64,000 bases of DNA from assembly GCA_009914755.4 (NCBI GenBank), contig CP086569.2, forward strand, positions 29,504,001 to 29,568,000. The letters are read 5' to 3'. Numbering within the stretch: the first letter of the stretch is position 1; each line of letters starts with the position of its first letter. Below the pieces are notes generated by a model, which did no database searches, had not been told where the DNA came from, and saw nothing but the letters and a program-made list of their open reading frames with translations. The DNA comes from the human T2T-CHM13v2.0 reference genome, Homo sapiens. A program made the translations under genes and the position numbers. Below, piece after piece: positions 203 through 51,391 of the stretch.

Positions 203-3052
203 ATGGAATCGAATGGAAAGGACTCGAATGGAAATCACTCGAATAGAATGCAATTTAATAAAATAGGATCAAATGGAATGGAATGGAATGGAAAGGAATC
301 GAAACGAAAGGAATGGAGACAGATGGAATGGAATGGAACAGAGAGCAATGGTATAGAATGGAATGGAATCATCTGGAATGGAATTGAATGGAATGGAATA
401 ATATGAAATGGAATGGAATGGAATGGAATGTCCTTGAATTAAGTGGACTGGAATGGAATGGACTCGAAAAGAGTGGAATGGAAAGTGTTGAAATAGAATG
501 GAATGGACTCCTTTGGAATGGTGTAGTATGCAATGCAATCGACTGGCAGGGAATCAAATGGAATGTAATGGAATGGATTGGACTGGAATGCAATGGACTC
601 GAATAGATTGGAAACGGAAAGCAAAGGAATGGAATGGAATAGTATGGAATGGAATGGAAAGGAATGGAGTGGAATAGACTAGAGTGGAATGGAATGGACT
701 CGAAAGGAATGGACTGGAATGGAACTTTCTTGAATGGACTGGAATCAAACGGAATGGAATGCAATGCAATCAAATGGCATGGAATAAAATAGAATGAAAG
801 AGAATCAAATGGAATTGAATCGAATGGAATCGAATGGATTGGAAAGGAATAGAATGGAATGGAATGGAATTGACTCAAATGGAAAGGACTAGAATGGAAT
901 GGATTCGAATGGAAGGCAAAGGAATGGAATCTATTGGAATGGACTGTAATGGAATGGAATGGAAGGGATTGGAATGGACTCGAATGGAATGGACTGCAAT
1001 AGAAAGGATTCGAATGGAATGAAAAAGAATTGAATGGAATAGAACAGAATGGAATCAAATCGAATGAAATGGAATGGAATAGAAAGGAATGGAATGAAAT
1101 GGAATGGAAAGGATTCGAATGGAATGCAATCGAATGGAATGGAATCGAACGGAATGGAATAAAATGGAAGAAAACTGGCAAGAAATGGAATCGAAATGAA
1201 TGGAGTGTTATGGAACGGACTCAAAAGGAATTGAATGTAATAGAATGGAGTGGAGTGGACTCGAATATAATGGACTGGAATGGAATGAAATCACATGGAA
1301 TGGGAACGAATGGAATGGAATGGAAAGGAATGGAATCGAATGGAAAGGAATCGAATGGAAGGGAATGAAATTGAATCAACAGGAATGGAAGGGAATAGAA
1401 TAGACGGTAATGGAATGGACTCGAATAGAATGGACACGAATGCTCAAATTGAATGGACTCGAATGGAATGGAAACGAAAGGAATGTCATCGAATGGAATT
1501 GAATCGATTGGAATGAAATCGCATAGAATGGAGTGGAATCAAATGGAATTGAATCGAAAGCAAAGGAAGCGAATGGACTGAAATGAAATGGACTCAAATT
1601 GAAAGGGCTCGAAAGGAATGGAGTCAAATGGAATGGTCTGGAATGGAGTGAACACGAATGTAATGCAATCCAATAGAATGGAATCGAATGGCATGGAATA
1701 TAAAGAAATGGAATCGAAGAGAATGGAAACAAATGGAATGGAATTGAATGGAATGGAATTGAATGGAATGGGAACGAATGGAGTGAAATTGTATGCAGTA
1801 GAAGAGAATAGAATGGAATGCAAGCGAAAGGAAAGGAATGGATTGGAATGGAATGGAATTCATTGGAATAGAAGGGAATGTAGTGTAATGGACAGGCCTG
1901 GAATAAAGTGGAATGCTACGGTCTCGAATGGAATAAAAATGTATGGAATGGAATGCAATGAAACGGAATCGAATGTCATAGAATGTAATGGAATGCAAAA
2001 AAATGGAATCCAAAATCATTGACTGGAAAGGCTGGGTGTCGAAAGGAATTGACTCCAATGGAATGGAATCGAATGGAATGGAAGTGAATAGAATCGAACT
2101 AAATCGAATGGAATGGAATTGATAGGAACGGAATGGAAAGGAATGCAATGATTTGGCATGGAATGGAATCGAATGGCATCGAATGGAATGGAATGGAATG
2201 CAATGGAATGGAATGTATTAGAATGTAATGAACATTAATGGAATGTACTCGAATGGATTCGACTGGCATGGAATGTTCTGGAAGTGAATGGAATCCAATG
2301 GAATGGATTCAAAAGGAATGGAATCATACGGAATGGAATCTAATGGAATGGAATTAAATGGAAATGAATCAAATTGAATAGCACGGAATTGAATTGAATG
2401 GAATCTAATGCAACGGAATCTAATGAAACGGAAAGGAAAGGAATGGAATGGAATGGAATGGGCTGGAATGGAAAGGAATCGAAACGAATGGAATGGAATC
2501 GAACTGAAGAGACTGGAATGGAATGCACTGGAATGGAAGGGAGTGTAATGGAAGGTTCTCGACAAAAATGGAATCGAATGGAATGGAATTGAATGGAACG
2601 GAATAGAGTGGAATGGAATTGAATGGAATGGAATGGACTAGAGTGAAATGGAATCGAACCACAAGGAATGGACAGGAATAGAATGGTCTCGAATTGAATG
2701 GAATCGTATGGAATGGCATCAAACGGAATGGAATGGACAGCCACGGAATGGAATGCACTCGAATGCAATGGAGTCGAAACTAATGGACTGGAATAGAATG
2801 GACTCGACTGGTACGGACTCCAATGGAATGGAATCGAATGGAAGGGAATCGAACGGAATGGACTCGAAGGGAAAAGACTGCAATGGAAAGGTATCGAATG
2901 GAATGGAAATTAATGGAATGGAATGGAATCGAATGAAATGGAGTCAAAAGGAATGGAATCGAATGGCAAGAAATCGAATGTAATGGAATCGCAAGGAATT
3001 GATGTGAACGGAACGGAATGGAATGGAATCCAAAGGAATGGAATAGAATGGA
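203..3052. repeat. HOR unit U1, short form (2850 bp; lacks the ~704-bp segment)
   Basis: Unit phase is arbitrary and anchored on the recurring landmark atggaatcgaatggaaaggactcgaatggaaatcactcg. The next landmark lies 2850 bp away. Confidence 0.85.
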
Positions 3053-5902
3053 ATGGAATCGAATGGAAAGGACTCGAATGGAAATCACTCGAATAGAATG
3101 CAATTTAATAAAATAGGAGCAAATGTAATGGAATGGAATGGAAAGGAATCGAAACGAAAGGAATGGAGACAGATGGAATGGAATGGAACAGAGAGCAATG
3201 GTATAGAATGGAATGGAATCATCTGGAATGGAATTGAATGGAATGGAATAATATGAAATGGAATGGAATGGAATGGAATATCCTTGAATTAAGTGGACTG
3301 GAATGTAATGGACTCGAACAGAGTGGAATGGAAAGTGTTGAAATAGAATGGAATGGACTCCTTTGGAATGGTCTAGTATGCAATGCAATCGACTGGCAGG
3401 GAATCAAATGGAATGTAATGGAATGGATTGGACTGGAATGCAATGGACTCGAATAGATTGGAAACGGAAAGCAAAGGAATGGAATGGAATAGTATGGAAT
3501 GGAATGGAAAGGAATGGAGTGGAATAGACTAGAGTGGAATGGAATGGACTCGAAAGCAATGGAATGGAATGGAACTTTCTTGAATGGACTGGAATCAAAC
3601 GGAATGGAAAGCAATGCAATCAAATGGCATGGAATAAAATAGAATGAAAGAGAATCAAATTGAATTGAATCGAATGGAATCGAATGGATTTGAAAGGAAT
3701 AGAATGGAATGGAATGGAATTGATTCAAATGGAATGGACTAGAATGGAATGGATTCGAATGGAAGGCAAAGGAATGGAATCTATTGGAATGGACTGTAAT
3801 GGAATGGAATGGAAGGGATTGGAATGGACTCGAATGGAATGGACTGCAATAGAAAGGATTCGAATGGAATGAAAAAGAATTGAATGGAATAGAACAGAAT
3901 GGAATCAAATCGAATGAAATGGAATGGAATAGAAAGGAATGGAATGAAATGGAATGGAAAGGATTCGAATGGAATGCAATCGAATGGAATGGAATCGAAC
4001 GGAATGGAATAAAATGGAAGAAAACTGGCAAGAAATGGAATCGAAATGAATGGAGTGTTATGGAACGGACTCAAAAGGAATTGAATGTAATAGAATGGAG
4101 TGGAGTGGACTCGAATATAATGGACTGGAATGGAATGAAATCACATGGAATGGGAACGAATGGAATGGAATGGAAAGGAATGGAATCGAATGGAAAGGAA
4201 TCGAATGGAAGGGAATGAAATTGAATCAACAGGAATGGAAGGGAATAGAATAGACGGTAATGGAATGGACTCGAATAGAATGGACACGAATGCTCAAATT
4301 GAATGGACTCGAATGGAATGGAAACGAAAGGAATGTCATCGAATGGAATTGAATCGATTGGAATGAAATCGCATAGAATGGAGTGGAATCAAATGGAATT
4401 GAATCGAAAGCAAAGGAAGCGAATGGACTGAAATGAAATGGACTCAAATTGAAAGGGCTCGAAAGGAATGGAGTCAAATGGAATGGTCTGGAATGGAGTG
4501 AACACGAATGTAATGCAATCCAATAGAATGGAATCGAATGGCATGGAATATAAAGAAATGGAATCGAAGAGAATGGAAACAAATGGAATGGAATTGAATG
4601 GAATGGAATTGAATGGAATGGGAACGAATGGAGTGAAATTGTATGCAGTAGAAGAGAATAGAATGGAATGCAAGCGAAAGGAAAGGAATGGATTGGAATG
4701 GAATGGAATTCATTGGAATAGAAGGGAATGTAGTGTAATGGACAGGCCTGGAATAAAGTGGAATGCTACGGTCTCGAATGGAATAAAAATGTATGGAATG
4801 GAATGCAATGAAACGGAATCGAATGTCATAGAATGTAATGGAATGCAAAAAAATGGAATCCAAAATCATTGACTGGAAAGGCTGGGTGTCGAAAGGAATT
4901 GACTCCAATGGAATGGAATCGAATGGAATGGAAGTGAATAGAATCGAACTAAATCGAATGGAATGGAATTGATAGGAACGGAATGGAAAGGAATGCAATG
5001 ATTTGGCATGGAATGGAATCGAATGGCATCGAATGGAATGGAATGGAATGCAATGGAATGGAATGTATTAGAATGTAATGAACATTAATGAAATGTACTC
5101 GAATGGATTCGACTGGCATGGAATGTTCTGGAAGTGAATGGAATCCAATGGAATGGATTCAAAAGGAATGGAATCGTACGGAATGGAATCTAATGGAATG
5201 GAATTAAATGGAAATGAATCAAATTGAATAGCACGGAATTGAATTGAATGGAATCGAATGCAATGGAATCTAATGAAACGGAAAGGAAAGGAATGGAATG
5301 GAATGGAATGGGCTGGAATGGAAAGGAATCGAAATGAATGGAATGGAATCGAACTGAAGAGACTGGAATGGAATGCACTGGAATGGAAGGGAGTGTAATG
5401 GAAGGTTCTCGACAAAAATGGAATCGAATGGAATGGAATTGAATGGAACGGAATAGAGTGGAATGGAATTGAATGGAATGGAATGGACTAGAGTGAAATG
5501 GAATCGAACCACAAGGAATGGACAGGAATAGAATGGTCTCGAATTGAATGGAATCGTATGGAATGGCATCAAACGGAATGGAATGGACAGCCACGGAATG
5601 GAATGCACTCGAATGCAATGGAGTCGAAACTAATGGACTGGAATAGAATGGACTCGACTGGTACGGACTCCAATGGAATGGAATCGAATGGAAGGGAATC
5701 GAATGGAATGGACTCGAAGGGAAAAGACTGCAATGGAAAGGTCTCGAATGGAATGGAAATTAATGGAATGGAATGGAATCGAATGAAATGGAGTCAAAAG
5801 GAATGGAATCGAATGGCAAGAAATCGAATGTAATGGAATCGCAAGGAATTGATGTGAACGGAACGGAATGGAATGGAATCCAAAGGAATGGAATAGAACG
5901 GA
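3053..5902. repeat. HOR unit U2, short form (2850 bp)
   Basis: Landmark spacing is 2850 bp. The ORF-track translations are near-identical to U1 at +2850. Confidence 0.85.
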
Positions 5903-8751
5903 ATGGAATCGAATGGAAAGGACTCGAATGGAAATCACTCGAATAGAATGCAATTTAATAAAATAGGATCAAATGTAATGGAATGGAATGGAAAGGAATC
6001 GAAACGAAAGGAATGGAGACAGATGGAATGGAATGGAACAGAGAGCAATGGTATAGAATGGAATGGAATCATCTGGAATGGAATTGAATGGAATGGAATA
6101 ATATGAAATGGAATGGAATGGAATGGAATGTCCTTGAATTAAATGGACTGGAATGGAATGGACTCGAACAGAGTGGAATGGAAAGTGTTGAAATAGAATG
6201 GAATGGACTCCTTTGGAATGGTCTAGTATGCAATGCAATCGACTGGCAGGGAATCAAAAGGAATGTAATCGAATGGATTGGACTGGAATGCAATGGACTC
6301 GAATAGATTGGAAACGGAAAGCAAAGGAATGGAATGGAATAGTATGGAATGGAATGGAAAGGAATGGAGTGGAATAGACTAGAGTGGAATGGAATGGACT
6401 CGAAAGCAATGGACTGGAATGGAACTTTCTTGAATGGACTGGAATCAAACGGAATGGAATGCAATGCAATCAAATGGCATGGAATAAAATAGAATGAAAG
6501 AGAATCAAATGGAATTGAATCGAATGGAATCGAATGGATTTGAAAGGAATAGAATGGAATGGAATGGAATTGACTCAAATGGAATGGACTAGAATGGAAT
6601 GGATTCGAATGGAAGGCAAAGGAATGGAATCTATTGGAATGGACTGTAATGGAATGGAATGGAAGGGATTGGAATGGACTCGAATGGAATGGACTGCAAT
6701 AGAAAGGATTCGAATGGAATGAAAAGGAATTGAATGGAATAGAACAGAATGGAATCAAATCGAATGAAATGGAATGGAATAGAAAGGAATGGAATGAAAT
6801 GGAATGGAAAGGATTCGAATGGAATGCAATCGAATGGAATGGAACCGAACGGAATGGAATAAAATGGAAGAAAACTGGCAAGAAATGGAATCGAAATGAA
6901 TGGAGTGTTATGGAACGGACTCAAAAGGAATTGAATGTAATAGAATGGAGTGGAGTGGACTCGAATATAATGGACTGGAATGGAATGAAATCACATGGAA
7001 TGGGAACGAATGGAATGGAATGGAAAGGAATGGAATCGAATGGAAAGGAATCGAATGGAAGGGAATGAAATTGAATCAACAGGAATGGAAGGGAATAGAA
7101 TAGACGGTAATGGAATGGACTCGAATAGAATGGACACGAATGCTCAAATTGAATGGACTCGAATGGAATGGAAACGAAAGGAATGTCATCGAATGGAATT
7201 GAATCGATTGGAATGAAATCGCATAGAATGGAGTGGAGTCAAATGGAATTGAAACGAAAGCAAAGGAAGCGAATGGACTGAAATGAAATGGACTCAAATT
7301 GAAAGGGCTCGAAAGGAATGGAGTCAAATGGAATGGTCTGGAATGGAATGAACACGAATGTAATGCAATCCAATAGAATGGAATCGAATGGCATGGAATA
7401 TAAAGAAATGGAATCGAAGAGAATGGAAACAAATGGAATGGAATTGAATGGAATGGAATTGAATGGAATGGGAACGAATGGAGTGAAATTGTATGCAGTA
7501 GAAGAGAATAGAATGGAATGCAAGCGAAAGGAAAGGAATGGATTGGAATGGAATGGAATTCATTGGAATGGAAGGGAATGTAGTGTAATGGACACCCTGG
7601 AATAAAGTGGAATGCTACGGTCTCGAATGGAATAAAAATGTATGGAATGGAATGCAATGAAACGGAATCGAATGTCATAGAATGGAATGGAATGCAAAAA
7701 AATGGAATCCAAAATCATTGACTGGAAAGGCTGGGTGTCGAAAGGAATTGACTCCAATGGAATGGAATCGAATGGAATGGAAGTGAATAGAATCGAACTA
7801 AATCGAATGGAATGGAATTGATAGGAACGGAATGGAAAGGAATGCAATGATTTGGCATGGAATGGAATCGAATGGCATCGAATGGAATGGAATGGAATGC
7901 AATGGAATGGAATGTATTAGAATGTAATGAACATTAATGGAATGTACTCGAATGGATTCGACTGGCATGGAATGTTCTGGAAGTGAATGGAATCCAATGG
8001 AATGGATTCAAAAGGAATGGAATCGTACGGAATGGAATCTAATGGAATGGAATTAAATGGAAATGAATCAAATTGAATAGCACGGAATTGAATTGAATGG
8101 AATCGAATGCAATGGAATCTAATGAAACGGAAAGGAAAGGAATGGAATGGAATGGAATGGGCTGGAATGGAAAGGAATCGAAACGAATGGAATGGAATCG
8201 AACTGAAGAGACTGGAATGGAATGCACTGGAATGGAAGGGAGTGTAATGGAAGGTTCTCGACAAAAATGGAATCGAATGGAATGGAATTGAATGGAACGG
8301 AATAGAGTGGAATGGAATTGAATGGAATGGAATGGACTAGAGTGAAATGGAATCGAACCACAAGGAATGGACAGGAATAGAATGGTCTCGAATTGAATGG
8401 AATCGTATGGAATGGCATCAAACGGAATGGAATGGACAGCCACGGAATGGAATGCACTCGAATGCAATGGAGTCGAAACTAATGGACTGGAATAGAATGG
8501 ACTCGACTGGTACGGACTCCAATGGAATGGAATCGAATGGAAGGGAATCGAACGGAATGGACTCGAAGGGAAAAGACTGCAATGGAAAGGTCTCGAATGG
8601 AATGGAAATTAATGGAATGGAATGGAATCGAATGAAATGGAGTCAAAAGGAATGGAATCGAATGGCAAGAAATCGAATGTAATGGAATCGCAAGGAATTG
8701 ATGTGAACGGAACGGAATGGAATGGAATCCAAAGGAATGGAATAGAATGGA
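5903..8751. repeat. HOR unit U3, short form (2849 bp; 1-bp deletion destroys its HaeIII site near 7595)
   Basis: Landmark spacing is 2849 bp. gacaggcctgg is replaced by gacaccctgg at ~7591-7600. Confidence 0.85.
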
Positions 8752-11700
8752 ATGGAATCGAATGGAAAGGACTCGAATGGAAATCACTCGAATAGAATGC
8801 AATTTAATAAAATAGGATCAAATGTAATGGAATGGAATGGAAAGGAATCGAAACGAAAGGAATGGAGACAGATGGAATGGAATGGAACAGAGAGCAATGG
8901 TATAGAATGGAATGGAATCATCTGGAATGGAATTGAATGGAATGGAATAATATGAAATGGAATGGAATGGAATGGAATGTCCTTGAATTAAATGGACTGG
9001 AATGGAATGGACTCGAACAGAGTGGAATGGAAAGTGTTGAAATAGAATGGAATGGACTCCTTTGGAATGGTCTAGTATGCAATGCAATCGACTGGCAGGG
9101 AATCAAAAGGAATGTAATCGAATGGATTGGACTGGAATGCAATGGACTCGAATAGATTGGAAACGGAAAGCAAAGGAATGGAATGGAATAGTATGGAATG
9201 GAATGGAAAGGAATGGAGTGGAATAGACTAGAGTGGAATGGAATGGACTCGAAAGCAATGGACTGGAATGGAACTTTCTTGAATGGACTGGAATCAAACG
9301 GAATGGAATGCAATGCAATCAAATGGCATGGAATAAAATAGAATGAAAGAGAATCAAATGGAATTGAATCGAATGGAATCGAATGGATTGCAAAGGAATA
9401 GAATGGAATGGAATGGAATTGACTCAAATGGAATGGACTATAATGGAATGGATTCGAATGGAAGGCAAAGGAATGGAATCTATTGGAATGGACTGTAATG
9501 GAATGGAATGGAAGGGATTGGAATGGACTCGAATGGAATGGACTGCAATAGAAAGGATTCGAATGGAATGAAAAAGAATTGAATGGAATAGAACAGAATG
9601 GAATCAAATCGAATGAAATGGAATGGAATAGAAAGGAATGGAATGAAATGGAATGGAAAGGATTCGAATGGAATGCAATCGAATGGAATGGAATCGAACG
9701 GAATGGAATAAAATGGAAGAAAACTGGCAAGAAATGGAATCGAAATGAATGGAGTGTTATGGAACGGACTCAAAAGGAATTGAATGTAATAGAATGGAGT
9801 GGAGTGGACTCGAATATAATGGACTGGAATGGAATGAAATCACATGGAATGGGAACGAATGGAATGGAATGGAAAGGAATGGAATCGAATGGAAAGGAAT
9901 TGAATGAAAGGGAATGAAATTGAATCAACAGGAATGGAAGGGAATAGAATAAACGGTAATGGAATGGACTCGAATAGAATGGACACGAATGCTCAAATTG
10001 AATGGACTCGAATGGAATGGAAACGAAAGGAATGTCATCGAATGGAATTGAATCGATTGGAATGAAATCGCATAGAATGGAGTGGAATGAAATGGAATTG
10101 AATCGAAAGGAAAGGAAGCGAATGCACTGAAATGAAATGGAATGGAATTGAATGGAAAGTAATGCAATGGAATAGAATGGAACGAAATTTCACGGAATGG
10201 AATCAAACTGAATGGAATCAAATCAATGGAATATAATCAAATGGAATGGAAAGGAATTGAATGGAGTAGATTGGATTGGATGGGATTGGAATGAAATGTA
10301 CTGGAAAGGACTCGAATTTCATGAAAAGGAATAGAATGAATTGGAACGGAATGGATTCGAATGGAATGGAATGTCATGGAATGGCATCAACTGGAATGGC
10401 ATCAAATGGAATGGAATCGAATGCAATGGAATGCTATGGAATGGAATGGAATGCATTGGAATGGAATGTCCTCTAATGGAATGGATTTGAGTGGAATGGA
10501 ATCGAATATAATGGAGTCGAATGAAATGGAATTGAAAAGAATGGGATCGAATAGAATGGAATATACTGGAATGTAATGTAATGAACTCGAATGTAATTGA
10601 CTGGAATGGAATGTACATGAATGGAATGTAATCGAATGGAAAGTAATCCAATGGAATAGAATCTAATGCAATAAAATCGACTCAGATAGAGTAGAATGTA
10701 AAGGAATGGAGTGCAGTGCAATGGAATGGAATGGAATGGAATGCAATGGAATGGAATGGAATGGAATGGAATGGAATGGGATGGGATGGAATGGTATGGA
10801 ATGGATAGTAATGGACTGGAGTGAAATGGACTGGAAAGGAGTGGACTCAAATTGAAAGGGCTCGAAAGGAATGGAGTCAAATGGAATGGTCTGGAATGGA
10901 ATGAACGCGAATGTAATGCAATCCAATAGAATGGAATCGAATGGCATGGAATATAAAGAAATGGAATCGAAGAGAATGGAAACAAATGGAATGGAATTGA
11001 ATGGAATGGAATTGAATGGAATGGGAACGAATGGAGTGAAATTGTATGCAGTAGAGGAGAATAGAATGGAATGCAAGCGAAAGGAAAGGAATGGATTGGA
11101 ATGGAATGGAATTCATTGGAATGGAAGGGAATGTAGTGTAATGGACAGGCCTGGAATAAAGTGGAATGCTACGGTCTCGAATGGAATAAAAATGTATGGA
11201 ATGGAATGCAATGAAACGGAATCGAATGTCATAGAATGTAATGGAATGCAAAAAAATGGAATCCAAAATCATTGACTGGAAAGGCTGGGTGTCGAAAGGA
11301 ATTGACTCCAATGGAATGGAATCGAATGGAATGGAAGTGAATAGAATCGAACTAAATCGAATGGAATGGAATTGATAGGAACGGAATGGAAAGGAATGCA
11401 ATGATTTGGCATGGAATGGAATCGAATGGCATCGAATGGAATGGAATGGAATGCAATGGAATGGAATGTATTAGAATGTAATGAACATTAATGGAATGTA
11501 CTCGAATGGATTCGACTGGAATGGAATGTCCTGGAAGTGAATGGACTCCAATGGAATGGATTCAAAAGGAATGGAATCGTACGGAATGGAATCTAATGGA
11601 ATGGAATTAAATGGAAATGAATCAAATTGAATAGCACGGAATTGAATTGAATGGAATGGAATGCAATGGAATCTAATGAAACGGAAAGGAAAGGAATGGA

Positions 11701-12305
11701 ATGGAATGGAATGGGCTGGACTGGAAAGGAATCGAAACGAATGGAATGGAATCGAACTGAAGAGACTGGAATGGAATGCACTGGAATGGAAGGGAGTGTA
11801 ATGGAAGGTTCTCGAAAAAAATGGAATCGAATGGAATGGAATTGAATGGAACGGAATAGAGTCGAATGGAATTGAGTGGAATGGAATGGACTAGAGTGAA
11901 ATGGAATCGAACCACAAGGAATGGACAGGAATAGAATGGTCTCGAATTGAATGGAATCGTATGGAATGGCATCAAACGGAATGGAATGGACAGCCACGGA
12001 ATGGAATGCACTCGAATGCAATGGAGTCGAAACTAGTGGACTGGAATAGAATGGACTCGACTGGTACGGACTCCAATGGAATGGAATCGAATGGAAGTTA
12101 ATCGAACGGAATGGACTCGAAGGGAAAAGACTGCAATGGAAAGGTCTCGAATGGAATGGAAATTAATGGAATGGAATGGAATCGAATGAAATGGAGTCAA
12201 AAGGAATGGAATGGAATGGCAAGAAATCGAATGTAATGGAATCGCAAGGAATTGATGTGAATGGAACGGAATGGAATGGAATCCAAAGGAATGGAATAGA
12301 ATGGA
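8752..12305. repeat. HOR unit U4, long form (3554 bp); hybrid with a short-subfamily-like head and a long-subfamily-like tail
   Basis: The head, 8752 to ~9870, is near-identical to U3 at +2849. From ~9890 onward it carries substitutions and the extra segment 10142-10844, which U1-U3 lack. Confidence 0.8.
10142..10844. repeat. ~703-bp segment present in long-form HOR units and absent from short-form units (shown in U4)
   Basis: Short units read ctgaaatgaaatgga|ctcaaattgaaagggctcg at ~1580-1600. Long units read ctgaaatgaaatgga|atggaattgaatggaaagtaatgc ... gtgaaatggactggaaaggagtgga|ctcaaattgaaagggctcg. Unit lengths differ by 3554 - 2850 = 704 bp. Confidence 0.8.
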
Positions 12306-26526: not shown

Positions 26527-29500
26527 ATGGAATCGAATGGAAAGGACTCGAATGGAAATCACTCGAATAGAATGCAATTTAATAAAATAGGATCAAATGT
26601 AATGGAATGGAAAGGAAAGGAATCGAAACGAAAGGAATGGAGACAGATGGAATGGAATGGAACAGAGAGCAATGGTATAGAATGGAATGGAATCATCTGG
26701 AATGGAATTGAATGGAATGGAATAATATGAAATGGAATGGAATGGAATGGAATGCAATTGAATTAAATGGACTGGAATGGAATGGACTCGAACAGAGTGG
26801 AATGGAAAGTGTTGAGATAGAATGGAATGGACTCCTTTGGAATGGTCTAGTATGCAATGCAATCGACTGGCAGGGAATCAAAAGGAATGTAATGGAATGG
26901 ATTGGACTGGAATGCAATGGACTCGAATAGATTGGAAACGGAATGCAAAGGAATGGAATTGAATAGTATGGAATGGAATGGAAAGGAATGGAGTGGAATA
27001 GACTAGAGTGGAATGGAATGGACTCGAAAGCAATGGACTGGAATGGAACTTTCTTGAATGGACTGGAATCAAACGGAATGGAATGCAATGCAATCAAATG
27101 GCATGGAATAAAATAGAATGAAAGAGAATCAAATGGAATTGTATCGAATGGAATCGAATGGATTGGAAAGGAATAGAATGGAATGGAATGGAATTGACTC
27201 AAATGGAATGGACTAGAATGGAATGGATTCGAATGGAAGGCAAAGGAATGGAATCTATTGGAATGGACTGTAATGGAATGGAATGGAAGGGATTGGAATG
27301 GACTCGAATGGAATGGACTGCAATAGAAAGGATTCGAATGGAATGAAAAAGAATTGAATGGAATAGAACAGAATGGAATCAAATCGAATGAAATGGAATG
27401 GAATAGAAAGGAATGGAATGAAATGGAATGGAAAGGATTCGAATGGAATGCAATCGAATGGAATGCAATCGAATGGAATGGAATCGAACAGAATGGAATA
27501 AAATGGAAGAAAACTGGCAAGAAATGGAATCGAAATGAATGGAGTGTTATGGAACGGACTCAAAAGCAATTGAATGTAATAGAATGGAGTGGAGTGGACT
27601 CGAATATAATGGACTGGAATGGAATGAAATCACATGGAATGGGAACGAATGGAATGGAATGGAAAGGAATGGAATCGAATGGAAAGGAATCGAATGGAAG
27701 GGAATGAAATTGAATCAACAGGAATGGAAGGGAATAGAATAGACGGTAATGGAATGGACTCGAATAGAATGGACACGAATGCTCAAATTGAATGGACTCG
27801 AATGGAATGGAAACGAAAGGAATGTCATCGAATGGAATTGAATCGATTGGAATGAAATCGCATAGAATGGAGTGGAATCAAATGGAATTGAATCGAAAGG
27901 AAAGGAAGCGAATGGACTGAAATGAAATGGAATGGAATTGAATGGAAAGTAATGCAATGGAATAGAATGGAACGAAATTTCACGGAATGGAATCAAACTG
28001 AATGGAATCAAATCAATGGAATCAAATCAAATGGAATGGAAAGGAATTGAATGGAGTAGATTGGATTGGATGGGATTGGAATGAAATGTACTGGAAAGGA
28101 CTCGAATTTCATGAAACGGAATGGAATGAATTGGAACGGAATGGACTCGAATGGAATGGAATGTCATGGAATGGCATCAAATGGAATGGCATCAAATGGA
28201 ATGGAATCGAATGCAATGGAGTGCTATGGAATGGAATGGAATGGAATGCATTGGAATGGAATGTCCTCTAATGGAATGGATTCGAGTGGAATGGAATCGA
28301 ATATAATGGAGTCGAATGAAATGGAATTGAAAGGAATGGGATCGAATACAATGGAATATACTGGAATGTAATGTAATGAACTCGAATGTAATTGACTGGA
28401 ATGGAATGTACATGAATGGAATGTAATCGAATGGAAAGTAATCCAATGGAATAGAATCTAATGCAATAAAATCGACTCAGATAGAGTAGAATGTAATGGA
28501 ATGGAGTGCAGTGCAATGGAATGGAATGGAATGGAATGCAATGGAATGGAATGGAATGGAATGGAATGGAATAGAATGGGATGGTATGGAATGGATAGTA
28601 ATGGACTGGAGTGAAATGGACTGGAAAGGAATGGACTCAAATTGAAAGGGCTCGAAAGGAATGGAGTCAAATGGAATGGTCTGGAATGGAATGAACACGA
28701 ATGTAATGCAATCCAATAGAATGGAATCGAATGGCATGGAATATAAAGAACTGGAATCGAAGAGAATGGAAACAAATGGAATGGAATTGAATGGAATGGA
28801 ATTGAATTGAATGGGAACGAATGGAGTGAAATTGTATGCAGTAGAAGAGAATAGAATGGAATGCAAGAGAAAGGAAAGGAATGGATTGGAATGGAATGGA
28901 ATTCATTGGAATGGAAGGGAATGTAGTGTAATGGACAGGCCTGGAATAAAGTGGAATGCTATGGTCTCGAAAGGAATAAAAATGTATGGAATGGAATGCA
29001 ATGAAACGGAATCGAATGTCATAGAATGTAATGGAATGCAAAAAAATGGAATCCAAAATCATTGACCGGAAAGGCTGGGTGTCGAAAGGAATTGATTCCA
29101 ATGGAATGGAATCGAATGGAATGGAAGTGAATAGAATCGAACTAAATCGAATGAAATGGAATTGATAGGAACGGAATGGAAAGGAATGCAATGATTTGGC
29201 ATGGAATGGAATCGAATGGCATCGAATGGATTGGAATGAAATGCAATGGAATGGAATGTATTAGAATGTAATGAACTTTAATGGAATGTACTCCAATGGA
29301 TTCGACTGGAATGGAATGTTCTGGAAGTGAATGGACTCCAATGTAATGGATTCGAAAGGAATGGAATCGTACGGAATGGAATCTAATGGAATGGAATTAA
29401 ATGGAAATGAATCAAATTGAATAGCACGGAATTGAATTGAATGGAATCGAATGCAATGGAATCTAATGAAACGGAAAGGAAAGGAATGGAATGGAATGGA

Positions 29501-30095
29501 ATGGGCTGGAATGGAATGGAATCGAAACGAATGGAATGGAATCGAACTGAAGAGACTGGAATGGAATGCACTGGAATGGAAGGGAGTGTAATGGAAGGTT
29601 CTCGACAAAAATGGAATCGAATGGAATGGAATTGAATGGAACGGAATAGAGTCGAATGGAATTGAATGGAATGGAATGGACTAGAGTGAAATGGAATCGA
29701 ACCACAAGGAATGGACAGGAATAGAATGGTCTCGAATTGAATGGAATCGTATGGAATGGCATCAAACGGAATGGAATGGACAGCCACGGAATGGAATGCA
29801 CTCGAATGCAATGGAGTCGAAACTAGTGGACTGGAATAGAATGGACTTGACTGGTACGGACTCCAATGGAATGGAATCGAATGGAAGGGAATCGAACGGA
29901 ATGGACTCGAAGGGAAAAGACTGCAATGGAAAGGTCTCGACTGGAATGGAAATTAATGGAATGGAATGGAATCGAATGAAATGGAGTCAAAAGGAATGGA
30001 ATCGAATGGCAAGAAATCGAATGTAATGGAATCGCAAGGAATTGATGTGAACGGAACAGAATGGAATGGATTCCAAAGGAATGGAATAGAATGGA
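26527..30095. repeat. HOR unit U9, long form (3569 bp)
   Basis: Landmark spacing. Shares the WKGKESK and LIQLHSIPF variant set with U5 and U8. Confidence 0.8.
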
Positions 30096-33000
30096 ATGGA
30101 ATCGAATGGAAAGGACTCGAATGGAAATCACTCGAATAGAATGCAATTTAATAAAATAGGATCAAATGTAATGGAATGGATTGGAAAGGAATCGAAACGA
30201 AAGGAATGGAGACAGATGGAATGGAATGGAACAGAGAGCAATGGTACAGAATGGAATGGAATCATCTGGAATGGAATTGAATGGAATAGAATAATATGAA
30301 ATGGAATGGAATGGAATGGAATGCCCTTGAATTAAATGGACTGGAATGGAATGGACTCGAACAGAGTGGAATGGAAAGCGATGAGATAGAATGGAATGGA
30401 CTCCTTTGGAATGGTCTAGTATGCAATGCAATCGACTGGCAGGGAATCAAAAGGAATGTAATCGAATGGATTGGACTGGAATGCAATGGACTCGAATAGA
30501 TTGGAAACGGAAAGCAAAGGAATGGAATGGAATAGTATGGAATGGAATGGAAAGGAATGGAGTGGAATAGACTAGAGTGGAATGGAATGGACTCGAAAGC
30601 AATGGACTGGATTGGAACTTTCTTGAATGGACTGGAATCAAAGGGAATGGAATGCAATGCAATCAAATGGCATGGAATAAAATAGAATGAAAGAGAATCA
30701 AATGGAATTGAATCGAATGGAATCGAATGGATTGGAAAGGAATAGAATGGAATGGAATGGAATTGACTCAAATGGAATGGACTAGAATGGAATGGATTCG
30801 AATGGAAGGCAAAGGAATGGAATCTATTGGAATGGACTGTAATGGAATGGAATGGAAGGGATTGGAATGGACTCGAATGGAATGGACTGCAATAGAAAGG
30901 ATTCGAATGGAATGAAAAAGAATTGAATGGAATAGAACAGAATGGAATCAAATCGAATGAAATGGAATGGAATAGAAAGGAATGGAATGAAATGGAATGG
31001 AAAGGATTCGAATGGAATGCAATCGAATGGAATGGAATCGAACGGAATGGAATAAAATGGAAGAAAACTGGCAAGAAATGGAATCGAAATGAATGGAGTG
31101 TTATGGAACGGACTCAAAAGGAATTGAATATAATAGAAAGGAGTGGAGTGGACTCGAATATAATGGACTGGAATGGAATGAAATCACATGGAATGGGAAC
31201 GAATGGAATGGAATGGAAAGGAATGGAATCGAATGGAAAGGAATCGAATGGAAGGGAATGAAATTGAATCAACAGGAATGGAAGGGAATAGAATAGAAGG
31301 TAATGGAATGGACTCGAAAAGAATGGACACGAATGCTCAAATTGAATGGACTCGAATGGAATGGAAACGAAAGGAATGTCATCGAATGGAATTGAATCGA
31401 TTGCAATGAAATCGCATAGAATGGAGTGGAATCAAATGGAATTGAATCGAAAGGAAACGAAGCGAATGGACTGAAATGAAATGGAATGGAATTGAATGGA
31501 AAGTAATGCAATGGAATAGAATGGAACGAAATTTCACGGAATGGAATCAAACTGAATGGAATCAAATCAATGGAATATAATCAAATGGAATGGAAAGGAA
31601 TTGAATGGAGTAGATTGGATTGGATGGAATTGGAATGAAATGTACTGGAAAGGACTCGAATTTCATGAAACGGAATGGAATGAATTGGAACGGAATGGAC
31701 TCGAATGGAATGGAATGTCATGGAATGGCATCAACTGGAATGGCATCAAATGGAATGGAATCGAATGCAATGGAATGTTATGGAATGGAATGGAATGCAT
31801 TGGAATGGAATGTCCTCTAATGGAATGGATTCGAGTGGAATGGAATCGAATATAATGGAGACGAATGAAATGGAATTGAAAGGAATGGGATCGAATACAA
31901 TGGAATATACTGGAATGTAATGTAATGAACTCGAATGTAATTGACTGGAATGGAATGTACATGAATGGAATGTAATCGAATGGAAAGTAATCCAATGGAA
32001 TAGAATCTAATGCAATAAAATCGACTCAGATAGAGTAGAATGTAATGGAATGGAGTGCAGTGCAATGGAATGGAATGGAATGGAATGCAATGCAATGGAA
32101 TGGAATGGAATGGAATGCAATGGGATGGAATGGTATGGAATGGATAGTAATGGACTGGAGTGAAATGCACTGGAAAGGAATGGACTCAAATTGAAAGGGC
32201 TCGAAAGGAATGGAGTCAAATGGAATGGTCTGGAATGGAATGAACACGAATGTAATGCAATCCAATAGAATGGAATCGAATGGCATGGAATATAAAGAAC
32301 TGGAATCGAAGAGAATGGAAACAAATGGAATGGAATTGAATGGAATGGAATTGAATTGAATGGGAACGAATGGAGTGAAATTGTATGCAGTAGAAGAGAA
32401 TAGAATGGAATGCAAGAGAAAGGAAAGGAATGGATTGGAATGGAATGGAATTCATTGGAATGGAAGGGAATGTAGTCTAATGGACAGGCCTGGAATAAAG
32501 TGGAATGCTACGGTCTCGAATGGAATAAAAATGTATGGAATGGAATGCAATGAAACGGAATCGAATGTCATAGAATGTAATGGAATGCAAAAAAATGGAA
32601 TCCAAAATCATTGACAGGAAAGGCTGGGTGTCGAAAGGAATTGACTCCAATGGAATGGAATCGAATGGAATGGAAGTGAATAGAATCGAACTAAATCGAA
32701 TGGAATGGAATTGATAGGAACGGAATGGAAAGGAATGCAATGATTTGGCATGGAATGGAATCGAATGGCATCGAATGGATTGGAATGGAATGCAATGGAA
32801 TGGAATGTATTAGAATGTAATCAACTTTAATGGAATGTACTCGAATGGATTCGACTGGAATGGAATGTTCTGGAAGTGAATGGACTCCAATGGAATGGAT
32901 TCGAAAGGAATGGAATCGTACGGAATGGAATCTAATGGAATGGAATTAAATGGAAATGAATCAAATTGAATAGCACGGAATTGAATTGAATGGAATCGAA

Positions 33001-33644
33001 TGCAATGGAATCTAATGAAACGGAAAGGAAAGGAATGGAATGGAATGGAATGGGCTGGAATGGAAAGGAATCGAAACGAATGGAATGGAATCGAACTGAA
33101 GAGACTGGAATGGAATGCACTGGAATGGAAGGGAGTGTAATGGAAGGTTCTCGACAAAAATGGAATCGAATGGAATGGAATTGAATGGAACGGAATAGAG
33201 TCGAATGGAATTGAATGGAATGGAATGGACTAGAGTGAAATGGAATCGAACCACAAGGAATGGACAGGAATAGAATGGTCTCGAATTGAATGGAATCGTA
33301 TGGAATGGCATCAAACGGATTGGAATGGACAGCCACGGAATGGAATGCACTCGAATGCAATGGAGTCGAATCTAGTGGACTGGAATAGAATGGACTTGAC
33401 TGGTACGGACTCCAATGGAATGGAATCGAATGGAAGGGAATCGAACGGAATGGACTCGAAGGGAAAAGACTGCAATGGAAAGGTCTCGACTGGAATGGAA
33501 ATTAATGGAATGGAATGGAATCGAATGAAATGGAGTCAAAAGGAATGGAATCGAATGGCAAGAAATCGAATGTAATGGAATCGCAAGGAATTGATGTGAA
33601 CGGAACAGAATGGAATGGATTCCAAAGGAATGGAATAGAATGGA
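30096..33644. repeat. HOR unit U10, long form (3549 bp)
   Basis: Landmark spacing. Near-identical to U11. Confidence 0.8.
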
Positions 33645-37193: not shown

Positions 37194-40100
37194 ATGGAAT
37201 CGAATGGAAAGGACTCGAATGGAAATCACTCGAATAGAATGCAATTTAATAAAATAGGATCAAATGTAATGGAATGGAATGGAAAGGAATCGAAACGAAA
37301 GGAATGGAGACAGATGGAATGGAATGGAACAGAGAGCAATGGTATAGAATGGAATGGAATCATCTGGAATGGATTTGAATGGAATAGAATAATATGAAAT
37401 GGAATGGAATGGAATGGAATACCCTTGTATTAAATGGATTGGAATGGAATGGACTCGAACAGAGTGGAATGGAAAGTGTTGAGATAGAATGGAATGGACT
37501 CTTTGGAATGGTGTAGTATGCAATGCAATCGACTGGCAGGAATCAAAAGGAATGTAATGGAATGGATTGGACTGGAATGCAATGGACTCGAATAGATTGG
37601 AAACGGAATGCAAAGGAATGGAATGGAATAGTATGGAATGGAATGGAAAGGAATGGAGTGGAATAGACTAGAGTGGAATGGAATGGACTCGAAAGCAATG
37701 GACTGTAATGGAACTTTCTTGAATGGACTGGAATCAAACGGAATGGAATGCAATGCAATCAAATGGCATGGAATAAAATAGAATGAAAGAGAATCAAATG
37801 GAATTGAATCGAATGGAATCGAATGGATTGGAAAGGAATAGAATGGAATGGAATGGAATTGACTCAAATGGAATGGACTAGAATGGAATGGATTCGAATG
37901 GAAGGCAAAGGAATGGAATCTATTGGAATGGACTGTAATGGAATGGAATGGAAGGGATTGGAATGGACTCGAATGGAATGGACTGCAATAGAAAGGATTC
38001 GAATGGAATGAAAAAGAATTGAATGGAATAGAACAGAATGGAATCAAATCGAATGAAATGGAATGGAATAGAAAGGAATGGAATGAAATGGAATGGAAAG
38101 GATTCGAATGGAATGCAATCGAATGGAATGGAATCGAACGGAATGGAATAAAATGGAAGAAAACTGGCAAGAAATGGAATCGAAATGAATGGAGTGTTAT
38201 GGAACGGACTCAAAAGGAATTGAATGTAATAGAATGGAGTGGAGTGGACTCGAATATAATGGACTGGAATGGAATGAAATCACATGGAATGGGAACGAAT
38301 GGAATGGAATGGAAAGGAATGGAATCGAATGGAAAGGAATCGAATGGAAGGGAATGAAATTGAATCAACAGGAATGGAAGGGAATAGAATAGACGGTAAT
38401 GGAATGGACTCGAATAGAATGGACACGAATGCTCAAATTGAATGGACTCGAATGGAATGGAAACGAAAGGAATGTCATCGAATGGAATTGAATCGATTGG
38501 AATGAAATCGCATAGAATGGAGTGGAATCAAATGGAATTGAATCGAAAGGAAAGGAAGCGAATGGACTGAAATGAAATGGAATGGAATTGAATGGAAAGT
38601 AATGCAATGGAATAGAATGGAACGAAATTTCACGGAATGGAATCAAACTGAATGGAATCAAATCAAATGGAATGGAAAGGAATTGAATGGAGTAGATTGG
38701 ATTGGATGGGATTGGAATGAAATGTACTGGAAAGGACTCGAATTTCATGAAACGGAATGGAATGAATTGGAACGGAATGGACTCGAATGGAATGGAATGT
38801 CATGGAATGGCATCAAATGGAATGGCATCAAATGGAATGGAATCGAATGCAATGGAATGCTATGGAATGGAATGGAATGCATTGGAATGGAATGTCCTCT
38901 AATGGAATGGATTCGAGTGGAATGGAATCGAATATAATGGAGTCGAATGAAATCGAATTGAAAGGAATGGGATCAAATACAATGGAATATACAGGAATGT
39001 AACGAAATGAACTCGAATGTAATTGACTGGAATGGAATGTACATGAATGGAATGTAATCGAATGGAAAGTAATCCAATGGAATAGAATCTAATGCAATAA
39101 AATCGACTCAAATAGAATAGAATGTAATGGAATGGAGTGCAGTGCAATGGAATGGAATGGAATGGAATTCAATGGAATGGAATGTAATGGAACGGAATGG
39201 AATGGGATGGAATGGTATGGAATGGATAGTAATGGACTGGAGTGAAATGGACTGGAAAGGAATGGACTCAAATTGAAAGGGCTCGAAAGGAATGGAGTCA
39301 AATGGAATGGTCTGGAATGGAATGAACACGAATGTAATGCAATCCAATAGAATGGAATCGAATGGCATGGAATATAAAGAAATGGAATCGAAGAGAATAG
39401 AAACAAATGGAATGGAATTGAATGGAATGGAATTGAATGGAATGGGAACGAATGGAGTGAAATTGTATGCAGTAGAAGAGAATAGAATGGAATGCAAGCG
39501 AAAGGAAAGGAATGGATTGGAATGGAATGGAATTCATTGGAATGGAAGGGAATGTAGTGTAATGGACAGGCCTGGAATAAAGCGGAATGCTACGGTCTCG
39601 AATGGAATAAAAATGTATGGAATGGAATGCAATGAAACGGAATCGAATGTCATAGAATGTAATGGAATGCAAAAAAATGGACTCCAAATCATTGACTGGA
39701 ATGGCTGGGTGTCGAAAGGAATTGACTCCAATGGAATGGAATCGAATGGAATGGAAGTGAATAGAATCGAACTAAATCGAATGGAATGGAATTGATAGGA
39801 ACGGAATGGAAAGGAATGGAATGATTTGGCATGGAATGGAATCGAATGGCTTCCAATGGAATGGAATGGAATGCAATGGAATGGAATGTATTAGAATGTA
39901 ATGAACTTTAATGGAATGTCCTCGAATGGATTCGACTGTAATGGAATGTTCTGGAAGTGAATAGACTCCAATGGAATGGATTCAAAAGGAATGGAATCGT
40001 ACGGAATGGAATCTAATGGAATGGAATTAAATGGAAATGAATCAAATTGAATAGCACGGAATTGAATTGAATGGAATCGAATGCAATGGAATCTAATGAA

Positions 40101-40725
40101 ACGGAAAGGAAAGGAATGGAATGGAATGGAATGGGCTGGAATGGAAAGGAATCGAAACGAATGGAATGGAATCGAACTGAAGAGACTGGAATGGAATGCA
40201 CTGGAATGGAAGGGAGTGTAATGGAAGGTTCTCGACAAAAATGGAATCGAATGGAATGGAATTGAATGGAACGGAATAGAGTCGAATGGAATTGAATGGA
40301 ATGGAATGGACTAGAGTGAAATGGAATCGAACCACAAGGAATGGACAGGAATAGAATGGTCTCGAATTGAATGGAATCGTATGGAATGGCATCAAACGGA
40401 ATGGAATGGACAGCCACGGAATGGAATGCACTCGAATGCAATGGAGTCGAAACTAATGGACTGGAATAGAATGGACTCGACTGGTACGGACTCCAATGGA
40501 ATGGAATCGAATGGAAGGGAATCGAACGGAATGGACTCGAAGGGAAAAGACTGCAATGGAAAGGTCTCGAATGGAATGGAAATTAATGGAATGGAATGGA
40601 ATCGAATGAAATGGAGTCAAAAGGAATGGAATCGAATGGCAAGAAATCGAATGTAATGGAATCGCAAGGAATTGATGTGAACGGAACGGAATGGAATGGA
40701 ATCCAAAGTAATGGAATAGAATGGA
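37194..40725. repeat. HOR unit U12, long form (3532 bp; carries a 14-bp deletion near 38665)
   Basis: aatcaaatcaatggaatataatcaaatggaatgg is reduced to aatcaaatcaaatggaatgg at ~38650-38670. The unit is 17 bp shorter than U10/U11. Confidence 0.75.
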
Positions 40726-43700: not shown

Positions 43701-44279
43701 AGGAATCGAAACGAATGGAATGGAATCGAACTGAAGAGACTGGAATGGAATGCACTGGAATGGAAGGGAGTGTAATGGAAGGTTCTCGACAAAAATGGAA
43801 TCGAATGGAATGGAATTGAATAGAACGGAATAGAGTCGAATGGAATTGAATGGAATGGAATGGACTAGAGTGAAATGGAATAGAACCACAAGGAATGGAC
43901 AGGAATAGAATGGTCTCGAATTGAATGGAATCGTATGGAATGGCATCAAACGGAATGGAATGGACAGCCACGGAATGGAATGCACTCGAATGCAATGGAG
44001 TCGAAACTAGTGGACTGGAATAGAATGGACTTGACTGGTACGGACTCGAAAGGAATGGAATCGAATGGAAGGGAATCGAACGGAATGGACTCGAAGGGAA
44101 AAGACTGCAATGGAAAGGTCTCGAATGGAATGGAAATTTATGGAATGGAATGGAATCGAATGAAATGGAGTCAAAAGGAATGGAATCGATTGGCAAGAAA
44201 TCGAATGTAATGGAATCGCTAGGAATTGATGTGAACGGAACGGTATGGAATGGAATCCAAAGGAATGGAATAGAATGGA
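40726..44279. repeat. HOR unit U13, long form (3554 bp); variant type A
   Basis: Landmark spacing. Near-identical copies lie at +10666 (U16) and +14220 (U17). Confidence 0.8.
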
Positions 44280-47200: not shown

Positions 47201-47832
47201 TAATGAAACGGAAAGGAAAGGAATGGAATGGAATGGAATGGGCTGGAATGGAAAGGAATCGAAACGAATGGAATGGAATCGAACTGAAGAGACTGGAATG
47301 GAATGCACTGGAATGGAAGGGAGTGTAATGGAAGGTTCTCGACAAAAATGGAATCGAATGGAATGGAATTGAATGGAACGGAATAGAGTCGAATGGAATT
47401 GAATGGAATGGAATGGACTAGAGTGAAATGGAATCGAACCACAAGGAATGGACAGGAATAGAATGGTCTCGAATTGAATGGAATCGTATGGAATGGCATC
47501 AAACGGAATGGAATGGACAGCCACGGAATGGAATGCACTCGAATGCAATGGAGTCGAAACTAATGGACTGGAATAGAATGGACTCGACTGGTACGGACTC
47601 CAAAGGAATGGAATCGAATGGAAGGGAATCGAACGGAATGGACTCGAAGGGAAAAGACTGCAATGGAAAGGTCTCGAATGGAATGGAAATTAATGGAATG
47701 GAATGGAATCGAATGAAATGGAGTCAAAAGGAATGGAATCGAATGGCAAGAAATCGAATGTAATGGAATCGCAAGGAATTGATGTGAAGGGAACGGAATG
47801 GAATGGAATCCAAAGGAATGGAATAGAATGGA
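44280..47832. repeat. HOR unit U14, long form (3553 bp); variant type B
   Basis: Private variants: the landmark atcgaatgg is changed to atagaatgg at 44280, a 15-bp deletion of aattgactcaaatgg lies near 44951, and there is an extra aattg pentamer near 44490. All reappear exactly at +14220 in U18. Confidence 0.8.
46267..46311 (+). repeat. Pure (AATGG)9 pentamer tract embedded in the HOR; copy number varies between units (about 4-9)
   Basis: By hand count: five pure repeats before gatgg in U4 (~10746-10770), four in U5 (~14311-14330), six in U13 (~42724-42753), nine in U14 here, eight in U15 (~49831-49870). Coordinates are accurate to about 2 bp. Confidence 0.6.
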
Positions 47833-50800: not shown

Positions 50801-51391
50801 GCTGGAATGGAAAGGAATCGAAACGAATGGAATGGAATCGAACTGAAGAGACTGGAATGGAATGCACTGGAATGGAAGGGAGTGTAATGGAAGGTTCTCG
50901 ACAAAAATGGAATCGAATGGAATGGAATTGAATGGAACGGAATAGAGTCGAATGGAATTGAATGGAATGGAATGGACTAGAGTGAAATGGAATCGAACCA
51001 CAAGGAATGGACAGGAATAGAATGGTCTCGAATTGAATGGAATCGAATGAAATGGCATCAAACGGAATGGAATGTACAGCCACGGAATGGAATGCACTCG
51101 AATGCAATGGAGTCGAAACTAATGGACTGGAATAGAATGGACTCGACTGGTACGGACTCCAATGGAATGGAATCGAATGGAAGGGAATCGAATGGAATGG
51201 ACTCGAAGGGAAAAGACTGCAATGGAAAGGTCTCGAATGGAATGGAAATTAATGGAATGGAATGGAATCGAATGAAATGGAGTCAAAAGGAATGGAATCG
51301 AATGGCAAGAAATCGAATGTAATGGAATTGCAAGGAATTGATGTGAACGGAACGGAATGGAATGGAATCCAAAGGAATGGAATAGAATGGA
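47833..51391. repeat. HOR unit U15, long form (3559 bp); variant type C
   Basis: Near-identical to U19 at +14220, e.g. the 168-aa frames 48561-49067 and 62781-63287. Confidence 0.8.

What the first reader, a model, noticed from the sequence alone, without database searches (positions are those of the whole stretch)
8752..12305. Unit U4 is a hybrid marking the boundary between the short-form and long-form HOR subfamilies
From 8752 to ~9870, U4 is almost identical to U3 (the same 270-aa and 89-aa artefact frames recur at +2849). Starting around 9890-9960 it acquires substitutions. Examples are ggaaaggaattgaatgaaagggaatg versus ggaaaggaatcgaatggaagggaatg, and aataaacggtaatgg versus aatagacggtaatgg. 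By ~10100 it carries long-subfamily diagnostic bases (cgaaaggaaagg rather than cgaaagcaaagg) and retains the 704-bp segment. The short block therefore abuts the long block through a recombinant unit, not a clean unit boundary. This is consistent with unequal crossover or gene conversion between HOR subfamilies.
Basis: seen in the sequence. Interest (0 to 1): 0.5.

Follow-up and report, generated by a model that had tools for sequence, protein, structure and literature searches.

The report
Ordinary block boundary in Y-chromosome DYZ1 satellite
In this stretch of human Y-chromosome DYZ1 satellite, the repeat copy at 8752-12305 does begin like its short neighbours and end like its long ones, but several other copies here are patchworks too, as expected for repeats that evolve by misaligned exchange.

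Summary
The window is human DYZ1/HSat3A6 satellite. It holds three 2.85-kb units (U1-U3), then 3.53-3.57-kb units. The short units lack 704 bp (U4 10138-10841) across a TGGA microhomology.

U4 is mosaic. It shares the derived states T8980, A9041 and A9169 with U1-U3, and 8749-9389 is identical to U3. From 10110 onward it has none of the short-only derived states (C10110, C11520, A11546, G11863). There it groups with U5-U8.

Three points need correcting:
- The substitutions cited at 9901, 9907 and 9952 are private to U4. Every other unit, short or long, carries the alternative, so they are not long-family markers.
- The switch is only bracketed to 9170-10109, not 9.9-10.1 kb.
- "Hybrid unit" depends on an arbitrary unit phase. 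A deletion-derived 2.85-kb block expanded by unequal exchange must end in a pre-deletion segment abutting the 704 bp.

Mosaicism is pervasive: the minimum number of recombination events (Rmin) is 24 among 18 units. U9, U16, U15, U12 and U6 contribute more incompatibilities than U4.

The short junction is absent from public contigs that hold 62 long-form junctions.

Verdict: a real feature, but ordinary and of low interest.

The parts
203..8751 (.). Three short DYZ1 units (U1 203-3052, U2 3053-5902, U3 5903-8751; 2850/2850/2849 bp). Bases 1-202 are the tail of a preceding unit, so the short block may continue left of the window.
   Evidence: Anchor matches and lag-2849/2850 k-mer periodicity. 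Pairwise identity is 99.2-99.3%.
7289..7292 (.). Deletion junction of the short form in U3: a TGGA microhomology. The same junction lies at 1589-1592 in U1 and 4439-4442 in U2.
   Evidence: U3 matches the left edge of the U4 segment up to 7292 and the right edge back to 7289. The 36-mer spanning the junction occurs only at 1577, 4427 and 7277.
8752..12305 (.). Unit U4 (3554 bp), the first long unit and the subject of the finding.
8749..9389 (.). Tract identical at lag 2849 to U3 (5900-6540). It contains the derived states shared with the short units: T8980 (exclusive to U1-U4), A9041 and A9169.
   Evidence: 0 differences to U3 against 5-11 to every other unit. Polarity from external DYZ1 copies: T8980 0/29, A9041 1/33, A9169 2/34.
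9170..10109 (.). Interval that must hold the switch from short-clade to long-clade ancestry. No site in it separates the two families.
   Evidence: Last short-type derived state is at 9169 and the first long-type state is at 10110.
9901..10841 (.). Zone rich in U4-private substitutions: 12 of U4's 20 private sites in 941 bp.
   Evidence: Scan statistic p=0.017, but similar clusters occur in U7, U8, U9, U12 and U13/U17. All are absent from external copies where countable.
10138..10841 (.). The 704-bp segment present in all long units and missing from U1-U3. It can equally be placed at 10142-10845 because of the TGGA microhomology.
   Evidence: MAFFT gap and junction comparison.
10110..12305 (.). 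Long-clade part of U4. It lacks the short-only derived states C10110, C11520, A11546 and G11863. It shares derived G12213 with U5-U8, T12262 with U7/U8, C11721 with U8, and G10554 with U7.

Best explanation
The window is human Y-chromosome DYZ1 (HSat3A6) satellite.

One DYZ1 unit lost 704 bp between two TGGA tetramers. That created a local 2.85-kb periodicity. Out-of-register (2.85-kb) unequal exchange between sister chromatids then multiplied it into a short-unit block.

Write a long unit as A-X-B, where X is the 704 bp. The 2.85-kb-periodic stretch is then necessarily X[B-A]nX. It ends with an A segment that abuts the first intact X.

It therefore shares derived variants with the short units, while X and B of U4 belong to the neighbouring long units (the U5-U8 group).

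Exchange in the 2.85-kb register can never replace the bases immediately left of X. This would explain why the last bases before X keep the long state at 10110 and carry private mutations, an edge effect.

Shown: the mosaic pattern, its polarity, the junction, and the DYZ1 identity. Inferred: the order of events, and crossover rather than gene conversion.
For: DYZ1 identity:
- GGAAT pentamer base.
- About 3.55-kb period with one GGCC site per unit, 38.7% GC and 1 CpG per 35 bp, matching Hallast 2023.
- The HSat3A6 24-mer listed for that subfamily in Altemose 2014 occurs 27 times, against 0 in shuffles.
- Up to 99% identity over whole units to human-derived contaminant contigs.

Deletion: TGGA microhomology at the junction.

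Mosaic:
- Derived states shared between U4 and U1-U3 occur only at 8980-9169.
- Short-only derived states are absent from U4 at 10110, 11520, 11546 and 11863.
- 641 bp are identical to U3.
- U4 shares derived G12213 with U5-U8.
- Sites 8980 and 12213 are four-gamete incompatible.

Mechanism in the literature:
- 29% of de novo Yq12 SNVs look like interlocus gene conversion.

Generality: Rmin is 24 among the 18 units.
Against: - Only one site (8980) is strictly exclusive to U1-U4. States at 9041 and 9169 recur in a few long units.
- The left end of the short block lies outside the window, so the mirror-image prediction cannot be checked.
- A single haplotype cannot separate crossover from gene conversion.
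- The cluster of private variants near the boundary is no stronger than clusters in other units, so the edge-effect step is weakly supported.
- Perfect-identity runs as long as 1,355 bp also exist between U1 and U2. The 641-bp identity with U3 is therefore not exceptional on its own.
Confidence: 0.7

Rival explanations
1. Non-reciprocal gene conversion. U4 was an ordinary long unit, and a tract of at least 190 bp (8980-9169) and at most about 1.36 kb was later copied into its 5' part from the adjacent short unit U3.
For: The 641-bp tract is identical to U3. Pedigree data indicate gene conversion among DYZ1/DYZ2 copies.
Against: It needs an extra event beyond those that built the short block. 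The short-type tract has no detectable left boundary and runs continuously out of U3. The pattern is what unequal exchange alone already predicts.
Confidence: 0.2
2. No exchange at all. U4 is simply the closest surviving long relative of the unit that suffered the deletion, and the sorted pattern of shared and short-only variants is chance or recurrent mutation.
For: Few informative sites exist. A9041 and A9169 also occur in other long units (U6/U14/U18 and U10/U11) and rarely in external copies, which shows homoplasy or exchange at those sites.
Against: Perfect sorting of 3 shared and 5 short-only derived sites has probability about 0.036. U4 also shares derived G12213, T12262 and C11721 with U5-U8 units that lack T8980, giving four-gamete incompatibility.
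Confidence: 0.05
3. Assembly artefact. A mis-join or mis-polished consensus at the change of periodicity produced a chimeric unit and the cluster of private substitutions at 9901-10841.
For: The junction of two periodicities in a 98-99% identical array is a hard place to assemble. Twelve private substitutions cluster there.
Against: All twelve private differences in this zone are substitutions rather than the small indels typical of long-read consensus errors (background knowledge). At least one (9901) is a CpG transition, read from the sequence. Comparable clusters occur in units far from any period change. The three short units are mutually distinct, which argues against a collapse.
Confidence: 0.05

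Closest known systems
DYZ1 / HSat3A6 satellite of human Yq12 (3,564-bp HaeIII unit; Altemose 2014; Rhie 2023; Hallast 2023)
   Same: Pentamer base, about 3.55-kb period, one HaeIII site per unit, GC and CpG content, the subfamily 24-mer, and 98-99% identity between units.
   Different: Three units here are 2.85 kb because of a 704-bp internal deletion. The DYZ1 papers I searched describe only 1-35-bp length differences and a modal 3,569-bp fragment. I found no mention of this variant.
Unequal-crossover model of tandem-array evolution, with poorly homogenised array edges (Smith 1976, from my own knowledge; edge divergence in DYZ arrays in Hallast 2023)
   Same: Blocks of similar units whose limits ignore unit phase. 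A length variant spread locally. Less homogenised sequence at a boundary.
   Different: The 'edge' here is internal. It is a change of period inside one DYZ1 array rather than the end of an array.
The 2.7-kb repeat at the Yq11/Yq12 border (Hallast 2023)
   Same: A shorter-than-DYZ1 unit, largely DYZ1-derived, arranged in tandem on Yq.
   Different: That repeat is 23% DYZ18-derived, and its DYZ1 part is 97% identical to DYZ1. The short units here align over all 2,850 bp to the neighbouring DYZ1 units at 98-99%, so they are pure deletion derivatives.

Membership tests
DYZ1 / HSat3A6 | Built from diverged GGAAT/CATTC pentamers | tested here: met
   TRF periods of 15 and 20 with GGAAT-type consensus across 6-63981. 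The top five 5-mers are the rotations of GGAAT.
DYZ1 / HSat3A6 | Higher-order unit of about 3.56 kb with a single HaeIII (GGCC) site | tested here: met
   15 long units of 3532-3569 bp. GGCC spacing is 3533-3567 bp. Three units are 2850 bp, and U3 has lost its site.
DYZ1 / HSat3A6 | Subfamily 24-mer TCGTTTCGATTCCTTTCCATTCCA (listed for HSat3A6 in Altemose 2014) | tested here: met
   27 exact matches on the minus strand and 0 in 100 shuffles.
DYZ1 / HSat3A6 | 38% GC and about 1 CpG per 35 bp (Hallast 2023) | tested here: met
   38.65% GC and 1 CpG per 35.0 bp.
DYZ1 / HSat3A6 | Located on Yq12, male-specific | not testable with these tools
   No human genome collection is available. Indirect support only: the same units at up to 99% identity in human-gut metagenome contigs and contaminated bacterial assemblies.
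Recombinant (mosaic) repeat unit | Shares derived variants with one group on one side and with another group on the other side, with one switch | tested here: met
   Short-clade derived states at 8980, 9041 and 9169. Long-clade states from 10110 on. Polarity taken from 22-52 external copies per site.
Recombinant (mosaic) repeat unit | Four-gamete incompatibility that needs exchange or recurrent mutation | tested here: met
   Sites 8980 and 12213 show all four combinations. Removing U4 drops incompatible pairs from 959 to 867 and Rmin from 24 to 21.
   No family-informative site lies between 9169 and 10110. The variants at 9901, 9907 and 9952 are U4-private.
Hallast 2.7-kb DYZ18/DYZ1 composite repeat | About 23% of the unit derived from DYZ18 | tested here: not met
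   All 2850 bp of U1-U3 align to the long DYZ1 units at 98-99% with only the 704-bp gap. No DYZ18 sequence was available for a direct comparison.

The most novel reading that the evidence does not exclude
An internal change of repeat period acts as a barrier to homogenisation. The bases next to the first intact 704-bp segment (9901-10841) cannot be overwritten by 2.85-kb-register exchange, so they accumulate private mutations. Alternatively, the mutations were introduced by error-prone repair synthesis at the exchange that built the block. Either way, period-change boundaries would record the history and mutational cost of unequal exchange in Yq12.
Probability: 0.1. Interest if true: 0.35.

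Novelty: already known. Interest (0 to 1): 0.12.

Why it matters
It matters little beyond bookkeeping. It is a worked example, at single-base resolution, of how a deletion variant of DYZ1 spreads locally and how block limits ignore the conventional unit phase.

The 2.85-kb junction (ACTGAAATGAAATGGACTCAAATTGAAAGGGCTCGA) is rare and could serve as a lineage marker for comparing Yq12 arrays between Y haplogroups.

The analysis also warns against reading private singletons as subfamily markers.

Tried and rejected
- Short-form junction 36-mer in metagenome contigs and genome contigs: no hit. The long-form control found 50 and 8 stretches, 62 matches in all. The collections therefore do hold DYZ1, and the short junction is below roughly 5% of junctions (rule of three, my arithmetic).
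- blastn of U3 against those loci gave only low-identity, out-of-register alignments across the junction and no true short unit.
- I tried to narrow the switch with the 15-bp indel at 9663. It is a tandem duplication, so its left junction is uninformative, and U6 lacks it too. I dropped this line.
- I tested whether the private-variant cluster at 9901-10841 is special. It is not: U7, U8, U9, U12 and U13/U17 cluster as much or more.
- Pfam scan of the 270-aa and 89-aa frames gave only sub-threshold low-complexity matches (Extensin_1 at 28.8 bits against a cut-off of 105, Pentapeptide_4 at 25.4 against 38).
- Literature search for a 2.8-kb DYZ1 variant found nothing.

Full report
**What the window is.** The whole 64 kb is a GGAAT-type pentameric satellite.
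- Composition is uniform: 38-39% GC with strong G over C skew.
- Spacing of repeated k-mers shows a higher-order period of about 3.55 kb from about 7.2 kb to the end. Before that the period is 2849-2850 bp.
- GGCC (HaeIII) occurs once per unit. GC is 38.65% and there is one CpG per 35 bp. These are the values Hallast et al. 2023 give for DYZ1.
- The 24-mer that Altemose et al. 2014 list for the Y-specific subfamily HSat3A6 occurs 27 times on the minus strand and never in shuffles.
- Whole units align at up to 99% to contigs in human-gut metagenomes and in contaminated bacterial assemblies.

I conclude the window is human DYZ1. Its chromosomal position could not be tested.

**Units.**
- U1-U3 are 2850, 2850 and 2849 bp. 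U4-U18 are 3532-3569 bp.
- Short units are 99.2-99.3% identical to each other. Most other pairs are 97.7-99.0%.
- In a MAFFT alignment the short units lack one block, equal to U4 10138-10841.
- The junction is a 4-bp TGGA microhomology (U3 7289-7292), so the deletion can equally be written 10142-10845.

**Checking the observation.** The ORF recurrence at +2849, the quoted strings and the retained 704 bp are all correct. The key correction concerns the quoted substitutions.
- The strings at 9891 and 9948 occur once in the window. The alternative strings occur in 18 and 16 other copies, short and long alike. Sites 9901, 9907 and 9952 are therefore private to U4 and are not long-family states.
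- Only cgaaagCaaagg (site 10110) is diagnostic, since it occurs only in U1-U3.

**Is U4 mosaic?** The sites where U1-U3 agree and differ from the long majority are 8980, 9041, 9169, 10110, 11261, 11487, 11520, 11546, 11863 and 12036. I polarised them with 58 external DYZ1 stretches.

| Short-unit state | External copies carrying it |
|---|---|
| T8980 | 0/29 |
| A9041 | 1/33 |
| A9169 | 2/34 |
| C10110 | 0/52 |
| A11546 | 0/22 |
| G11863 | 0/27 |

- So, where they could be polarised externally, the short states are derived; C11520 could not be counted in the external copies.
- U4 carries the derived state at 8980, 9041 and 9169. It carries the ancestral state at 10110, 11520, 11546 and 11863.
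- At 11261 and 11487 the short state is also carried by U4's long neighbours, so those sites do not discriminate.
- In its 3' part U4 shares derived G12213 with U5-U8, T12262 with U7/U8 and C11721 with U8.
- Sites 8980 and 12213 show all four combinations, so exchange or recurrent mutation is required.
- U4 is identical to U3 over 8749-9389, whereas every other unit differs from it there by 5-11 sites.

The mosaic is real. It rests on few sites, however, and only 8980 is exclusive to U1-U4.

**Where is the switch?** No family-informative site lies between 9169 and 10110, so the interval is 9170-10109.
- Exact identity with U3 ends at 9389.
- From 9390 to 9900 U4 differs from U3 at 5 sites and from the long consensus at 2.
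- From 9901 U4-private variants become dense: 12 in 9901-10841, against 2 in 8752-9900 and 6 in 10842-12305.
- That cluster has a scan p of 0.017. U7, U8, U9, U12 and U13/U17 show equal or stronger clusters, so it does not localise the switch.

**Is it special?** No.
- Hudson-Kaplan Rmin for the 18 units is 24.
- Dropping one unit at a time lowers the 959 incompatible site pairs as follows:

| Unit dropped | Incompatible pairs removed |
|---|---|
| U4 | 92 |
| U9 | 208 |
| U16 | 187 |
| U15 | 178 |
| U12 | 130 |
| U6 | 107 |

- U9 switches from a U5/U8-like 5' part to a U10/U11-like 3' part.
- U16 follows U13/U17 up to 11659 and then joins U15 at 11960-11989.
- U15 alternates between the U13/16/17 type and the U14/18 type.

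Blocks of similarity simply do not respect the chosen unit phase.

**Mechanism.** Write a long unit as A-X-B, with X the 704 bp.
- After X is lost from one unit, the 2.85-kb-periodic stretch is B-A-B-A, flanked by X on both sides.
- Unequal sister-chromatid exchange in that register multiplies the B-A period.
- Every product still ends in an A segment touching an intact X. That A is the 5' part of U4.
- It therefore belongs to the short-period block by construction, while X and B of U4 belong to the long units on the right.
- Exchange in this register never replaces the bases directly left of X. This fits the long-type G10110 and the private variants just before X, although that last step is weakly supported.

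Unequal exchange and gene conversion are the documented modes of change in Yq12. A separate gene conversion from U3 into U4 gives the same picture and cannot be excluded from one haplotype. Pure chance and mis-assembly are less likely, for the reasons given under the rival explanations.

**Abundance of the short form.**
- The junction 36-mer is absent from the metagenome and prokaryote-genome collections.
- The corresponding long-form 36-mer gives 62 matches in 58 stretches.
- The short form is therefore a rare, probably local, variant.
- It is not the 2.7-kb DYZ18/DYZ1 composite of Hallast et al., because all 2850 bp are 98-99% DYZ1.
- I found no description of it in the papers searched.

**Verdict.** The feature is real and partly as described, but it is an ordinary consequence of how tandem arrays evolve. 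Interest is low.

Noticed in passing
window 40381-49780 versus 54601-64000: A recent tandem duplication of four units (lag 14,220 bp). There are only 6 mismatches in 9,400 bp, and it runs to the end of the window. U13 = U17 (100%) and U14 = U18 (99.9%).
   Followed up: partly
window 7594-7595 (U3): U3 has lost its HaeIII (GGCC) site through a 1-bp deletion plus G>C. This gives a 6,403-bp GGCC-to-GGCC interval (4745 to 11148) in an array that otherwise has one site per unit.
   Followed up: partly
U9 26527-30095; U15 47833-51391; U16 51392-54945; U12 37194-40725: These units are at least as mosaic as U4. U9 is U5/U8-like on its 5' side and U10/U11-like on its 3' side. U16 follows U13/U17 and then joins U15 at the equivalents of 11960-11989. 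Overall Rmin is 24.
   Followed up: partly
window 29240-33606 (lag 3549) and 50606-54603 (lag 3554): Near-identical neighbouring units: U10/U11 at 99.7% and U16/U17 at 99.5%, with 14 and 12 mismatches over about 4 kb. These indicate very recent single-unit duplications or homogenisation.
   Followed up: no
U4-U8, equivalents of U4 positions 11816 and 12213: U4-U8 share A11816 and G12213. In external DYZ1 copies 11816 is always A (23/23) and 12213 always C (33/33). The C11816 carried by U1-U3 and U9-U18 is therefore a derived, array-specific state, and U4-U8 form a distinct five-unit patch.
   Followed up: partly
L051-L058 (for example BMRF01000076.1 Actinomadura cremea JCM 3308, BMUF01000085.1 Streptomyces malachitofuscus JCM 4493, NZ_JBFAJD010000109.1 Streptomyces sp.): Contigs deposited as bacterial genome sequence carry human DYZ1 units at up to 99% identity over whole units (shown for L051 and L058). 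This is human male DNA contamination in public prokaryote assemblies. The 55-kb metagenome contigs BNJT01001888.1 and BNJU01004413.1 do too.
   Followed up: partly
U9 and U13/U17 (also U7, U8, U12): Unit-private substitutions are significantly clustered within units (scan statistic, 941-bp window: U9 p<0.0002, U13 p=0.004). This suggests patches derived from donors outside the window, or patches that escaped homogenisation.
   Followed up: partly
L017 and L047 (contig BNJU01001848.1), L010 (BNJU01004413.1): Some external DYZ1-like units are only 82-94% identical to the window's units, and one long-junction spacing is 3,486 bp. More diverged DYZ1-type arrays therefore exist in other samples.
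   Followed up: no
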